51,950 bases of DNA from a virus (taxonomy: Duplodnaviria; Heunggongvirae; Uroviricota; Caudoviricetes): IMG/VR virus record IMGVR_UViG_2909303794_000011, positions 1 to 51,950 of that record. One strand, given 5' to 3'. Numbering within the stretch: the first letter of the stretch is position 1; each line of letters begins with the position of its first letter. Shown in pieces: positions 45,001-48,000 of this stretch. Position numbers: made by a program.

Positions 45001-48000
45001 TTGAAGCGTTAATGCATGATGCAACAGAAGCGTATTGCCAGGACATTCCCGCACCACTGAAACGCCTTCTTCCTGACTATAAACGGATGGAAGAAAAAAT
45101 AGACGCCGTAATCCGTGAGAAATACGGGTTACCCCCGGTTATGAGTACACCCGTGAAATATGCCGATCTCATCATGCTGGCAACCGAACGCCGCGATCTC
45201 GGGCTTGATGATGGCTCTTTCTGGCCTGTACTGGAAGGCATCCCGGCAACAGAGATGTTCAACGTGATTCCACTGGCACCGGGCCATGCCTACGGGATGT
45301 TTATGGAACGTTTTAACGATTTATCGGAGTTACGCAAATGCGCATGAATGTTTTCGAAATGGAAGGGTTTCTTCGCGGGAAATGTGTACCGCGAGATCTG
45401 AAAGTGAACGAAACAAATGCTGAGTACCTGGTACGTAAATTCGACGCGCTTGAAGCTAAATGTGCGGCACTGGAAAACAAAATAATACCAGTGTCAACTG
45501 AACTGCCACCAGCAAATGAAAGTGTTCTGTTATTTGATGCTAATGGAGAAGGCTGGCTGATTGGCTGGCGTTCTCTCTGGTACACCTGGGGACAAAAAGA
45601 AACCGGAGAATGGCAGTGGACATTTCAGGTCGGGGACCTTGAAAACTTCAATATCACTCACTGGGCAGTAATGCCCAAAGCGCCGGAGGCTGGAGCATAA
45701 TGACCACATTTACCAATAAAGAACTGATTAAAGAAATCAAAGAACGAATCAGCAGCCTAGAGGTTCGAGACGATATTGAGCGCCGTGCTTATGAAATTGC
45801 TCTGGCATCGCTGGAAGAGGAGCCGGTGGCATGGCTGCATTCAGACAATGGCTTAGGTATTCCGGCAATAACCAGGAGCAAAAACATTGCTGACAGTTGG
45901 TTATCAATGGGCTGGTATGTTCAGCCGCTATATATAGCCAAGCCAGTACTGGTGGTGCCAGATGCTCGTCCGTCTTTAAATAATGGCATAGTCGGTTTTG
46001 ATGAAGGCTGGAACGCCTGCCGCGCCACCATGCTTCATGGTGCCAAACCTGTAAGCCAGACTTACAAGTTGAACAAGCTGTCGGGCAACTCTCCGGTAAC
46101 TCAGGATGGTTGGATAAGCTGTAGTGAGCGAATGCCGAACGATAAACAGTATGTTTGGTGTTGGGGTAAGTCTTACGGCTGGACTGAGTGCGATACCTTC
46201 GAAGGGTATTACGATTGGTCGAGAAACAAATGGTGGGCAGTTACTGACGATGGGGAAGAACCGGCATCGAAAGTAACCCACTGGATGCCGCTACCGGAGC
46301 CACCGCAGGAGGTGAAGTAATGAACAACTTAATGACAACTAAACAAGTCGCCGACTTCTGTGGCGTTTCAGTATCGACCGTTCTTCGCTGGAACAGCGTA
46401 AACAGGAGAACTGGCCAGAAATACAGGCCTGACTTTCCAGATCCTGATATTAAATCCTGCCCAAATAAATGGGCATCACGCAAGATATACAGGTTTGCTG
46501 GAGTTATTGAGTGATGGGTATTAGCTCATATCAGAACTAATACCCATCAATGACACAGAGCCAACTACCCACCCTGTGTCAGGGGCTAACTTTTAACACC
46601 ATAATTCACCGCTAGATAAAAACTGTATTGCATTGCACGAGCGGCGCAGCATTATCAGTTAGAGTGTCTTTACCTTGTTAGGCTCCACAGTTCGCACTGT
46701 CCAACGCCTGTCACTTTCACACGCTGCGCCTTCGAGAATATTCATTTAATCGCTGATAACGAACATCTTGCTCCAGTTGTGGAGCAGCTTGAACAATTTG
46801 AAGCAAGCATTGCCCCAACTCTCGAGGCCTCCAGTGTTGTTCGGCAATCACGGCATTCAGCAGGGATAGAGCGTCCGCAGGATATCGGCTGCAAATATCT
46901 GATTCTAGCAAAAGGCGAACGTCGTAGCTAAGGTGTTCGAGCGGTTGCAGCCAGTCCTGCACCACTGCCAAAGCCGCCGGAAATTCACCTCGGGCAGCAA
47001 TCACCATACGAGTCAACGATTCGGATATGCGTGGGGTGGCCAAGTTGCGGGACTTTGGCCAAACCTGTTGCCAAAATGGCTGGACACGATTTTTCCAATA
47101 CTCCTCGCGCTGATCGCCCGCACCTTCAAGTGCCTGGTATAACGCCTGCGCGGCTACCTCCAGACCTTCTTGTGGAAGAGCACTAATTGCCGTTCGGAAC
47201 TCCTCCACGGTATATCCCTCGGTAGGGCCCAGAGCTGCATAAGTCAGGAAAATAGCGAATTGCTGCCGGTGCTCGCCAAGATCAGAATAGTGATTGGCGC
47301 TCTCCAAAAAATCTGACTTGAAAGCTATCAGCAACGGTTCATACAGGCGTGGCGACCAGAGGAAGCCTTCCCACACAGCTTTTGCTTCGACGGGATTACT
47401 CCAAGCAAACAAGGGCAATAGATACTGTTCGGTCCAAGGTCGATCTACGCGAAAAAATGCGATCAGCCGCGACCCCAGCAACACCCGACCATGGCGGAAT
47501 AGCTCTATCTGTACATTACACAATTTGGTGAAAAGTGTTTTCAATTCAACAGGAAGCAAATCATTGTCATTCGGGTTCTGTTTGAACCATAGGGTGATCA
47601 GTGATTGCGTGACATGCCCAATGGGATGATTGATCGCCGTAGAAACAGGATCATAGGTCTCAATTCCGTTTCGAATGGTGCTAGACTCTGGGCTTGTTTC
47701 TATCATCAGAACCCGACGACAAAGGGCCAGTAGAATCTCCTCGTGGCAGAGGATGGTCTTCGAAGCCTCCTCCATCCACCAAGTGACAGCGTGGGAAATC
47801 TCCTGAAGTACTGCGTCAGGCATGTCAAGCACCAACGGTGCGGCGTACCGCCACGAACGCAAAATCATCCCTGGTTCAGCCCAAGTCTGCAGAGCTTCAC
47901 GCCACCGACCAACAGGCCACACATCATCTTGTGATAGTTTACGTAACGCATACAGACTGTGAAAAAAGCGCGTACGGCAAACATCACTCCAAGTGTCCTC

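What the first reader, a model, noticed from the sequence alone, without database searches (positions are those of the whole stretch)
46513..46548. Perfect 12/12 inverted repeat exactly at the xis stop codon
GATGGGTATTAG-N12-CTAATACCCATC begins inside the xis stop codon, between the convergent xis and SIR2 genes. There is no U-tract on either strand, so it is not a canonical intrinsic terminator. It could be a protein-binding site (recombination-directionality or arm-type site), an RNA stability element, or the scar of the junction where the SIR2 cargo was acquired.
Basis: seen in the sequence. Interest (0 to 1): 0.4.

Follow-up and report, generated by a model that had tools for sequence, protein, structure and literature searches.

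The report
End of a mobile defence-gene cassette
The palindrome at the xis stop codon is the outer tip of an ~87-base inverted repeat bounding a transposon-like, transposase-less cassette that put the Dsr1 anti-phage gene between xis and int; the same ends bracket other defence genes in P2-like phages, lambdoid phages and plasmids.

Summary

It is not an Xis/Int site or a terminator. It is the outermost part of the left terminal inverted repeat (46517-46592) of a 4,234-bp cassette (46517-50750) carrying dsr1. The inverted right end (50665-50750) supplies int's last 7 codons and its stop.

In Pantoea, Trabulsiella and Symbiopectobacterium, xis and int abut with no insert. An E. coli relative at the same site has a perfect 7-bp direct repeat AGTAACG on both sides. 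The window's own copies are decayed (AGTGATG / AGTAACA).

The same ~87-nt ends are annotated 'left/right inverted repeat' in the P2 Z/fun region (GenBank AJ512680/1). They occur at six or more other phage and plasmid sites, each with its own 7-bp duplication. They flank more than 50 cargo families and never a shared transposase.

The window's left end is degenerate: terminal TGT is GGT, and 11 nt of the conserved second-hairpin loop are missing. Its weak ancestral quasi-palindrome has become near-perfect, the strongest of 78 variants.

Verdict: a new member, at a new site, of a known but barely studied repeat family. The mobilising enzyme is unknown.

The parts
46320..46514 (+). xis (64-aa excisionase), last gene of the early-left operon. 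Its TGA stop (46512-46514) lies in the left copy of the 7-bp target duplication and forms the first 3 bases of the palindrome.
   Evidence: ORF list; PHROG phrog_1553 excisionase, E = 7.7e-36; annotated 'excisionase' in phage cdtI.
46510..46516 (.). Left copy of the 7-bp target-site duplication, decayed here to AGTGATG. It reads AGTAACG in relatives and in the empty site.
   Evidence: L004 at the same site has AGTAACG on both sides, 7/7; the window-type matches 4/7. The empty sites in Pantoea and Trabulsiella contain the sequence once.
46512..46549 (.). HP1, the reported palindrome: 13/13 perfect, 16-nt arms with one mismatch, 6-nt loop. It spans the stop codon and duplication plus the first 33 nt of the left terminal repeat.
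   Evidence: It is the strongest fold of 78 distinct left ends: -20.8 (+) and -25.6 (-) kcal/mol against a median of about -7.
46517..46592 (+). Left terminal inverted repeat (L-end) of the cassette, a degenerate copy. Terminal GGT replaces the consensus TGT, 11 nt of the conserved HP2 loop are deleted, and the tail motif has diverged.
   Evidence: nhmmer L-profile hit at 46509-46596, 38 bits. Alignment of 73 left ends shows conservation stopping about 87 nt from the terminus. Consensus sequence.
46551..46581 (.). HP2, the second hairpin (TGACACAG...CTGTGTCA). It is the most conserved block of left ends family-wide (GGCACAGAG-loop-CTCTGTGCC).
   Evidence: Folds. 95.6% of cells are paired across 73 sequences, and two pairs show double compensatory changes.
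46717..50544 (-). dsr1 (1275 aa, SIR2_2 domain), the cargo of the cassette.
   Evidence: ORF; RefSeq name 'anti-phage defense-associated sirtuin Dsr1'; Pfam SIR2_2, E = 8.8e-23.
50665..50750 (-). Right terminal inverted repeat (R-end), well preserved. Its outer 24 nt encode the last 7 codons and the stop of int (CTRSGSK*).
   Evidence: nhmmer R-profile hit at 50642-50754, 102 bits. It aligns to the annotated 'right inverted repeat' of P2-EC46. Consensus.
50751..50757 (.). Right copy of the 7-bp target-site duplication (AGTAACA). It encodes part of int residues ..IVT.
50727..51950 (-). int (407-aa tyrosine integrase), convergent with xis. In cargo-free relatives its 3' end overlaps the xis 3' end.
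   Evidence: ORF; annotation; Pantoea int ends ...VESLVTG* and overlaps xis.

Best explanation
What it is. The palindrome is the outermost part of the left ~87-nt terminal inverted repeat of a 4.2-kb, transposase-less cargo cassette (46517-50750) that carries dsr1. The cassette lies in a 7-bp target (AGTAACG) where the 3' ends of xis and int originally overlapped. Insertion duplicated that target, so both genes survived: xis keeps its stop in the left copy, and int reads 7 extra codons out of the right end.

Family. The cassette belongs to the repeat family annotated as 'left/right inverted repeat' around the Z/fun cargo of P2-like phages. Each end has three blocks: a terminal TGTAYT..CTCAG block containing a short quasi-palindrome (HP1), a strongly conserved hairpin with a conserved loop (HP2), and an inner AGCGGACGTT motif.

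How it works (inferred). These blocks are the recognition sites of an enzyme supplied in trans. It makes 7-bp staggered cuts, as a DDE-type transposase would, and either inserts or replaces whole cassettes. The enzyme was not found.

This copy (inferred). The left end is decayed: the terminal TGT, the HP2 loop motif and the duplication are all mutated, so it is probably no longer mobile. The unusually perfect palindrome is a lineage-specific upgrade of the ancestral weak quasi-palindrome. The most economical cause is intrastrand template switching, which copies one arm from the other. Today the stem can at most act as a 3' structure for the converging xis and dsr1 transcripts.
For: Shown:
- Inverted homologous ends flank dsr1. 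The right end matches the P2-EC46 'right inverted repeat' and the left end matches the left-end profile.
- Left(+)...right(-) pairs 1.1-6 kb apart occur in nearly all loci that hold both ends. Both ends are about 86-87 nt, with the same outer terminus and the same inner boundary.
- Natural empty sites exist. Xis and int abut or overlap in Pantoea, Trabulsiella and Symbiopectobacterium, and the joined E. coli flanks align without gaps to the first two.
- 7-bp direct repeats of different sequence flank independent insertions: AGTAACG 7/7 (L004, the same site as the window), AATTATT 7/7 (L177), ATTCAGT 7/7 (Salmonella plasmid, L238), 6/7 (L230), 5/7 (L219 and the P2 G|FI site). The mean is 3.9/7 against 1.4/7 in shifted registers.
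- The element sits at unrelated positions: after P2 G, between tail-completion and baseplate genes, after a tail-fibre gene, after an integrase, after a P2 A-like nickase, and on 153 plasmids.
- More than 50 cargo families, mostly defence domains, and no shared transposase.
- Identity steps sharply at the termini among xis-site cassettes: xis flank 96%, left end 70%, right end 62%, int flank 93%.
- The window's left end is degenerate, and its HP1 is the extreme of 78 variants. The outer four HP1 pairs exist only in this lineage.

From the literature: Benler & Koonin 2022 (PMC8987985) cite Nilsson et al. 2004 for inverted repeats flanking fun in phages and bacteria.
Against: - No transposase or recombinase was identified, so mobility is inferred only from end structure, duplications and distribution.
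- At the xis|int site all E. coli genomes are occupied: 0 of 690 are empty. At least six cargo types share the same insertion point. This fits site-specific or homology-driven cassette replacement as well as repeated transposition.
- The original authors proposed site-specific recombination, and I could not read their paper.
- In the window itself the duplication matches only 4/7 and the terminus is mutated, so the insertion signature rests on relatives.
- Template switching as the origin of the perfect palindrome is an inference from clustered, complementarity-increasing differences. Selection for a stable RNA or DNA hairpin would give the same pattern.
- The outer-terminus placement was done by motif scoring and failed for some loci.
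Confidence: 0.72

Rival explanations
1. The stem-loop, together with HP2, works mainly at the RNA level. It would be a 3' structure that stabilises, or a non-canonical terminator or insulator that separates, the converging xis (early-left operon) and dsr1/int transcripts. Selection for that role made it perfect.
For: It sits exactly between convergent genes. The folds are strong: -20.8 (+) and -25.6 (-) kcal/mol for HP1, and z = -3.9 for the minus-strand region. No other terminator-like structure follows dsr1 (z = 0.0). On the minus strand the single mismatch becomes G.U. Two further changes (TAA to TGA, TCT to TCA) lengthen the stem while keeping a stop codon.
Against: There is no U-tract on either strand. 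There is no Rfam match. Strand preference of G.U against A.C across the family is mixed. In 75 of 78 left-end variants HP1 is weak (about -7 kcal/mol), yet those phages have the same convergent arrangement, so a strong stem is not required. The same element occurs where genes are not convergent (P2 G|FI). No expression data are available.
Confidence: 0.2
2. The ends are sites for conservative site-specific recombination, as proposed for P2 Z/fun. On this view cassettes are swapped between phages, plasmids and chromosomes by a recombinase acting on the repeats, and the 7-bp repeats are crossover or overlap regions rather than transposition duplications.
For: The published interpretation, as relayed in PMC8987985. 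The xis|int and P2 G|FI sites are always occupied at exactly the same point by many different cassettes. Identity steps exactly at the termini. Tyrosine recombinases use 6-8-bp overlap regions (established knowledge).
Against: The flanking 7-mers differ from site to site (AGTAACG, AATTATT, ATTCAGT, TCTAAAT...), whereas a site-specific system needs a shared core. The two sites are in inverted orientation, which for a simple recombinase gives inversion rather than insertion or excision. Empty sites contain the 7-mer once and no recognisable part of the ends. No recombinase is linked to the cassettes.
Confidence: 0.2
3. The palindrome is a binding site for Xis, Int or another phage regulator, such as an arm-type or directionality site or an operator. 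It would control excision or int/xis expression.
For: It lies next to both recombination genes, and dyad symmetry is typical of dimeric DNA-binding proteins (inference only).
Against: The prophage att site lies beyond the int start, outside the window and next to yjjG, not here. Cargo-free relatives with homologous xis and int lack the sequence altogether. The homologous sequence occurs in P2-like phages and plasmids without this xis or int. The arm motif has no further copies in the window beyond chance. The sequence differs by about 30% between phages whose xis is 93-100% identical.
Confidence: 0.03

Closest known systems
Inverted repeats flanking the Z/fun cargo of P2-like coliphages (Nilsson, Karlsson & Haggard-Ljungquist 2004, Mol Biol Evol 21:1; GenBank AJ512680 and AJ512681, features 'left inverted repeat' and 'right inverted repeat')
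   Same: Homologous sequence at both ends: the same TGTAYT terminus, HP2 block, AATCTGACAGTC core and AGCGGAC.TT inner boundary. The layout is also the same, left(+) - cargo - right(-). The left end starts right after a stop codon, and the cargo is lysogenic-conversion or defence genes. P2's own fun(Z) is bracketed by the same ends.
   Different: The backbone and site differ: the xis|int junction of a lambdoid prophage next to yjjG, not G|FI of P2. The cargo differs (dsr1). The window's left end is degenerate and its HP1 has become a near-perfect palindrome. The published mechanism was site-specific recombination, whereas the site-specific 7-bp duplications and empty sites found here point to transposition-like insertion. 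I could not read the paper, so I cannot say whether they noted the duplications.
Mobile insertion cassettes (MICs): transposase-less elements with IS-type terminal inverted repeats around passenger genes, moved in trans (for example MIC231 of the Bacillus cereus group; recalled from memory, term attested)
   Same: Terminal inverted repeats, target-site duplication, passenger genes, no transposase inside, and several independent insertion sites.
   Different: No cognate IS or transposase is known for these ends. The ends are unusually long (~87 nt), internally structured and differentiated into left and right types. The elements are concentrated at phage hotspots, at only 1-3 copies per genome.
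Ends of Mu / Tn7 / Tn552-type DDE transposons (from memory: TG...CA termini, ~90-150-bp ends with several subterminal transposase sites, left and right ends differentiated; Tn552 has ~116-bp inverted repeats and 6-7-bp duplications)
   Same: 5'-TGT termini, long differentiated ends, a motif repeated within each end (..CTGACA.. twice, seen by eye), and a 7-bp duplication.
   Different: There is no sequence similarity beyond the first few bases, and no transposase, ATPase or target-selector genes are associated. This is a lead, not a test.
Quasi-palindrome correction by intrastrand template switching (a known mutational mechanism in E. coli; from memory)
   Same: A cluster of at least six differences confined to the two arms, all of which raise complementarity relative to sister variants.
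   Different: It was not demonstrated here. Selection for a stable hairpin would give the same result.
Rho-independent terminators and REP/ERIC-type intergenic palindromes
   Same: An intergenic stem-loop directly after a stop codon.
   Different: There is no U-tract, no Rfam family, a low copy number and paired inverted ends around cargo.

Membership tests
P2 Z/fun-type inverted-repeat-flanked cargo cassettes | Left end homologous to the annotated 'left inverted repeat' | tested here: met
   nhmmer left-end profile hits window 46509-46596 at 38 bits, weak because the copy is degenerate. Sister variants at the same site score 53-88 bits. It aligns in register in A3.
P2 Z/fun-type inverted-repeat-flanked cargo cassettes | Inverted right end homologous to the annotated 'right inverted repeat' on the far side of the cargo | tested here: met
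   Window 50642-50754, minus strand, 102 bits. Pairwise alignment to the P2-EC46 right repeat.
P2 Z/fun-type inverted-repeat-flanked cargo cassettes | Location between genes G and FI of a P2-like phage | tested here: not met
   The window element lies between xis and int of a lambdoid prophage. The family is therefore wider than its original description.
Non-autonomous DNA transposon (MIC/MITE-like) | Terminal inverted repeats | tested here: met
   Both ends are ~86-87 nt, with a shared TGTAYT..CTCA terminus and a shared inner boundary.
Non-autonomous DNA transposon (MIC/MITE-like) | Target-site duplication of fixed length and variable sequence | tested here: met
   7-bp repeats: three independent sites at 7/7, one at 6/7 and two at 5/7, against 1.4/7 in the control. 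In the window itself only 4/7 (decayed).
Non-autonomous DNA transposon (MIC/MITE-like) | Empty site containing the target once | tested here: met
   Pantoea, Trabulsiella and Symbiopectobacterium xis/int junctions. The joined flanks align without gaps to the first two. No empty site was found in E. coli, 0 of 690.
Non-autonomous DNA transposon (MIC/MITE-like) | A cognate transposase that recognises the ends; demonstrated movement | not testable with these tools
   No transposase is shared among cassettes. The single DDE_Tnp_1 is in one 6-kb cassette and looks like a secondary IS. Mobility was not observed.
Intrinsic (rho-independent) terminator | G+C-rich stem followed by a U-tract | tested here: not met
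   The stem is A+T-rich with no T-run on either strand. The scan flagged only a weak site inside HP2.
Xis/Int arm-type or directionality-factor binding site | Conserved with the cognate xis/int and att site; repeated copies near att | tested here: not met
   It is absent from cargo-free xis/int relatives and present without this xis or int. There are no further copies in the window. The att site lies beyond the int start. Binding itself was not tested.
Integron attC / gene cassette | A single imperfect hairpin site per cassette with RYYYAAC/GTTRRRY cores, and a nearby intI | tested here: not met
   There are two inverted ends per cassette, the termini are TGTAYT rather than GTTRRRY, there is no intI, and variable 7-bp duplications are present.
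Described RNA families (Rfam 15) | Covariance-model match at or near the gathering score | tested here: not met
   Best hits are 12-17 bits with E = 1-10 against unrelated eukaryotic snoRNA models. Only the window variant was searched.

The most novel reading that the evidence does not exclude
The ~87-nt ends define a still-active family of transposase-less cassettes in Enterobacterales. An unidentified enzyme supplied in trans, making 7-bp staggered cuts, would load and swap defence, virulence and resistance genes. It would act at the classic variable 'hotspots' of P2-like phages (Z/fun, the orf30 position, the tin/old position), at those of lambdoid phages (xis|int, the tail-fibre end), and on conjugative plasmids. 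That would give phage defence hotspots a concrete molecular mechanism, rather than 'illegitimate recombination plus selection'.
Probability: 0.4. Interest if true: 0.75.

Novelty: new member of a known kind. Interest (0 to 1): 0.5.

Why it matters
How anti-phage genes get into, and turn over at, fixed hotspots of temperate phages is usually left unexplained. Hotspot surveys such as Rousset et al. 2022 (PMC9122126) and Hochhauser et al. 2023 (PMC10121019) do not mention flanking repeats.

This window shows that the xis|int hotspot of a common E. coli prophage family is bounded by the same structured ends that bracket P2's Z/fun cargo. Those ends carry an insertion signature: an empty site and a 7-bp duplication. 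About a third of complete E. coli genomes hold at least one copy, and it is never annotated.

Practical uses:
- The ends are a cheap sequence tag for finding new defence cargo.
- They define exact cassette borders for cloning.
- They give a handle for finding the enzyme, for example by pull-down on the ends or by genetic screens for cassette movement.

For the palindrome itself the lesson is more modest. It is a decayed transposon end whose weak dyad became near-perfect, not a regulatory site of the excision machinery.

Tried and rejected
- Terminator reading: the consensus scan and folds showed no U-tract, so it was rejected as canonical.
- Rfam, E-value mode, on 46000-47000: only chance-level snoRNA hits.
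- First viral scan with a 15-nt xis-end pattern: mostly chance hits, which had to be filtered by blastn.
- First automated search for target duplications misplaced the right termini and gave a null result of 1.5/7. It was redone with motif-anchored termini. A few loci remain misplaced there (L162, L207, L231, L013, L102, L069).
- Search for a transposase inside cassettes: 40 representative cargo proteins against Pfam. The only hit was one DDE_Tnp_1 in a 6-kb cassette, probably a secondary IS. The IS66 and IS911 genes next to plasmid copies are separate insertions.
- Cross-context cargo sharing at nucleotide level: none in this sample. So there is no direct evidence of one cargo moving between backbones.
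- Empty-site search for the Salmonella plasmid cassette: uninformative, because the right flank is IS256-family sequence.
- Empty xis|int site in E. coli: none in 690 genomes.
- The Nilsson 2004 and Odegrip 2006 papers are not held. Citing papers give only one sentence on the repeats.
- Strand of action from G.U against A.C asymmetry: mixed, so no conclusion.
- Considered and dropped from sequence inspection and recalled consensus sequences: XerCD/dif-like site, Ter site, Gin/Cin crossover site, IHF site, IS200/IS605-type HUH ends (these have no duplication and no terminal inverted repeats) and ERIC/REP.
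Full report
**1. The observation**

The sequence is as described. GATGGGTATTAG (46513-46524) and CTAATACCCATC (46537-46548) are perfect complements.
- The perfect stretch is 13 bp (46512-46524 / 46537-46549).
- After one C.A mismatch it continues to 16-nt arms around a 6-nt loop.
- On the minus-strand RNA the mismatch is G.U, so the stem is an unbroken 16 bp.
- The xis ORF is 46320-46514, so the repeat begins with the T of the TGA stop.

It is more than chance would give. About 0.014 perfect 13-mers with short loops are expected per window. None appeared in 40 first-order Markov simulations, and the window has only one other, at 5354. The consensus scan confirms that no terminator-like site (stem plus T-run) coincides with it. 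A second hairpin (46551-46581) follows immediately.

**2. Context**

The window is a lambdoid prophage. In E. coli AMSHJX01 (100% identical over the query) it lies next to yjjG.
- The early-left operon (yfdP, yfdQ, yfdR, a DUF551 gene, xis) runs rightwards and ends at xis.
- dsr1 (46717-50544) and int (50727-51950) run leftwards.
- Relatives with 93-100% identical xis carry quite different genes between xis and int: an AIPR protein, a 710-aa CHAT-domain protein (phage cdtI), an AAA_15 ATPase, and unknowns.
- Their similarity to the window breaks at or just after the xis stop.

**3. Cargo-free relatives**

In Pantoea stewartii, Trabulsiella guamensis and Candidatus Symbiopectobacterium, homologous xis (83%, 87% and 51% identity) and int converge with no cargo and no hairpins. 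In Pantoea and Trabulsiella the two 3' ends overlap. So everything between the two stop codons in the E. coli lineage is inserted DNA.

**4. The hairpins belong to a repeat family found in many places**

A scan of IMG/VR for the HP2 stem motif found the same HP1-HP2-tail unit in several settings. It sits directly after the stop codon of P2 gene G (tail-fibre assembly) in dozens of P2-like contigs, and after several other unrelated genes.

GenBank records AJ512680 and AJ512681 (P2-EC46 and P2-EC48 'Z-region') annotate exactly this unit as 'left inverted repeat'. They annotate a 'right inverted repeat' on the other side of the cargo ORFs. P2's own fun(Z) is bracketed in the same way.

The reverse complement of the window's dsr1-int spacer aligns with that right repeat. 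nhmmer profiles place a left-type end at 46509-46596 (38 bits) and a right-type end at 50642-50754 on the opposite strand (102 bits).

**5. Anatomy of the ends**

Across 234 loci, almost every locus holding both ends shows left(+)...right(-), 1.1-6.0 kb apart. Both end types are about 86-87 nt.
- They start with the same terminus, TGTAYT..CTCAG (left consensus TGTATTAGCTCAGAYTTGA.CTGAC).
- They share the core AATCTGACAGTC.GCT.TG.GC.
- They stop at the same inner motif, AGCGGAC.TT. Beyond it the sequences are unrelated.

HP1 is the terminal 35 nt or so. HP2 is the most conserved block of left ends.
- HP2: 95.6% of cells paired in 73 distinct sequences, with two pairs showing double compensatory changes.
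- HP1: the inner stem is kept as an imperfect hairpin with real covariation. Pair 15-32 occurs as GU, UG, UA and AU.

In window coordinates:

| Part | Coordinates | Sequence / note |
|---|---|---|
| Left 7-mer | 46510-46516 | AGTGATG |
| Left end | 46517-46592 | degenerate copy |
| dsr1 | 46717-50544 | minus strand |
| Right end | 50665-50750 | well preserved |
| Right 7-mer | 50751-50757 | AGTAACA |

The int stop (50727-50729) lies inside the right end. The right end therefore encodes int's last residues, CTRSGSK*. Pantoea int ends ...VESLVTG*.

**6. Insertion signature**

With termini anchored on the terminal motif, 7-bp direct repeats of different sequence flank independent insertions.

| Locus / site | Left / right 7-mer | Match |
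|---|---|---|
| L004, same xis\|int site as the window | AGTAACG / AGTAACG | 7/7 |
| L177, after a P2 A-like nickase gene | AATTATT / AATTATT | 7/7 |
| L238, Salmonella IncFIB plasmid, 880-bp cassette | ATTCAGT / ATTCAGT | 7/7 |
| L230, after a tail-fibre gene | TCTAAAT / TCAAAAT | 6/7 |
| L219, after an integrase | GTTTAGT / GTTTTGG | 5/7 |
| P2 G\|FI | AATAAGT / AATCAGG | 5/7 |

The mean over 29 junction pairs is 3.9/7, including some with misplaced termini. Shifted registers give 1.4/7.

The empty sites contain AGTAACG once. The E. coli flanks, joined with one copy of the 7-mer, align without gaps to the Pantoea and Trabulsiella junctions. Terminal inverted repeats, a fixed-length duplication of variable sequence, and an empty site together are the classical signature of transposition. 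They are not the signature of conservative site-specific recombination.

**7. Distribution and cargo**

The flanking genes place the element at these positions:
- P2 G|FI (the Z/fun locus)
- between tail-completion and baseplate genes of P2-like phages
- after a lambdoid tail-fibre gene
- after a P4-type integrase
- after a P2 A-like replication nickase
- near lysis genes
- at xis|int

It is also on 153 plasmids in PLSDB, mostly Klebsiella, next to cargo such as fhuE and an afa fimbrial cluster. At least one copy is present in 1885 of 5426 complete E. coli genomes. The median is 1, the maximum is 3, and it is never annotated.

About 94 cassettes hold more than 50 unrelated protein families:
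- SIR2/Dsr1, AIPR, CHAT, NERD, AAA_15, DUF4435+AAA_21
- RES, PIN_8, TIR, FRG, DUF3800, SMEK, Peptidase_U49, GIY-YIG
- an HTH+2TM protein, and ArsB

No transposase is shared. The cassettes are therefore non-autonomous, and the enzyme is unknown.

**8. Turnover at one site**

No E. coli genome has an empty xis|int junction (0 of 690). At least six cargo classes occupy exactly the same point. Among them, identity is 96% in the last 120 nt of xis, 70% in the left end, 62% in the right end and 93% in the last 120 nt of int.

Cassettes are thus replaced as whole units, ends included, with the break exactly at the termini. I cannot tell whether this reflects repeated targeted insertion, enzyme-mediated replacement, or homologous exchange in the flanks. 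This is the main reason the site-specific rival keeps appreciable weight.

**9. What is special about the window's palindrome**

Among 78 distinct left ends, HP1 normally folds weakly, with a median of about -7 kcal/mol. The window type folds at -20.8 (+) and -25.6 (-) and is the extreme. One relative (L125) has an 11-bp perfect version.

Compared with sister variants at the same site, the differences are clustered in the two arms and all raise complementarity:
- the right arm is ..CTAATACCCATCA instead of ..CTGACACATCT
- the left arm is GGGTATTAG instead of GTGTATTAT
- TAA has become TGA
- TCT has become TCA

At the same time the window's left end has lost features that are nearly invariant elsewhere:
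- the terminal TGT is GGT
- 11 nt of the HP2 loop (AACCTAATCTG) are deleted
- the tail motif has diverged
- the left 7-mer has two changes

I infer that this left end is no longer a functional end. I also infer that the perfect dyad arose by templated 'correction' of a quasi-palindrome, or by selection for a stable stem. The data cannot separate those two. No convincing terminator lies between dsr1 and the left end, so dsr1 transcripts probably run into HP2 and HP1. A role as a 3' structure is possible but untested.

**10. Comparison with what is known**

The repeat family itself is known. It appears in the GenBank annotations and in Nilsson et al. [quoted passage not shown] I could not read the original paper.

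I found no description of the following in the searchable literature, including the hotspot papers:
- the xis|int location
- the dsr1 cargo
- the spread to other P2 and lambdoid hotspots and to plasmids
- the 7-bp duplications
- the natural empty site

In kind, the element resembles mobile insertion cassettes. Its ends resemble, in architecture only, those of Mu/Tn7/Tn552-type transposons. That comparison is from memory and is a lead, not a test.

**11. Verdict**

The feature is a new member, at a new site, of a known but neglected family of repeat-bounded cargo cassettes. The palindrome alone is of modest interest. The family it points to is of real interest, because it offers a testable mechanism for loading defence genes into phage hotspots.

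Noticed in passing
window 5354-5384: The only other perfect inverted repeat of 13 bp or more in the window: CACAAAACCGGAG-N5-CTCCGGTTTTGTG. It looks like a bidirectional intrinsic terminator.
   Followed up: no
window 50727-50750: The last 7 codons and the stop of int (CTRSGSK*) are encoded by the terminus of the cassette's right end. Cargo-free Pantoea int ends ...VESLVTG*. The insertion therefore remodelled the integrase C-terminus.
   Followed up: partly
L226, L131, L142, L146, L176, L188 (P2-type left ends): HP1 is collapsed to TAAGTTGTATTAGCTTACATATCT, a deletion between the two arms of the quasi-palindrome. This shows that the dyad is a site of structural instability.
   Followed up: no
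L005 8477-12717: A window-type cassette in which dsr1 is split into 667-aa and 383-aa ORFs and HP2 carries a small deletion. It is probably a decaying copy.
   Followed up: no
L231 1944-5049; L148 3024-4924: The same ends lie between the tail-completion and baseplate genes of P2-like phages. In one case they carry an ArsB arsenical pump with neighbouring small ORFs, and in the other a PIN_8 protein. The cargo is therefore not only anti-phage genes.
   Followed up: partly
L238 7001-7875 (Salmonella IncFIB conjugative plasmid NZ_CP092862): A minimal 880-bp cassette with canonical termini at both ends, one HTH_3+2TM gene and a perfect 7-bp duplication ATTCAGT. It looks like the most recent insertion found and would be a good substrate for mobility tests.
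   Followed up: partly
L237 5999-6095 (Klebsiella pINF078-VP): A left end next to fhuE, with an IS66 element inserted immediately outside the terminus. 102 of the 153 plasmid hits are Klebsiella. No right end was detected nearby.
   Followed up: no
E. coli complete genomes: None of the 690 genomes that match the xis and int flanks has an unoccupied junction. The hotspot is always filled in E. coli, whereas Pantoea, Trabulsiella and Symbiopectobacterium have it empty.
   Followed up: partly
left and right end consensus; window 46517-46592, 50665-50750: A YCTGACA motif occurs twice in each end: in the terminal block (..GA.CTGACAC..) and in the HP2 loop or core (..AATCTGACAG..). It may be a repeated protein-binding site. 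Seen by eye only. The window's left end has lost the second copy.
   Followed up: no
L002 8121-8315 (NZ_CP030939, identical to window 46320-46514): RefSeq does not annotate the xis ORF in this genome and marks the preceding DUF551 gene as two pseudogene fragments. Other records call the same ORF 'excisionase' or 'DNA-binding protein'.
   Followed up: no
window 51950: The window ends exactly at the int start codon, so the att site and the int promoter region lie outside it. In AMSHJX01 the next chromosomal gene is yjjG.
   Followed up: no
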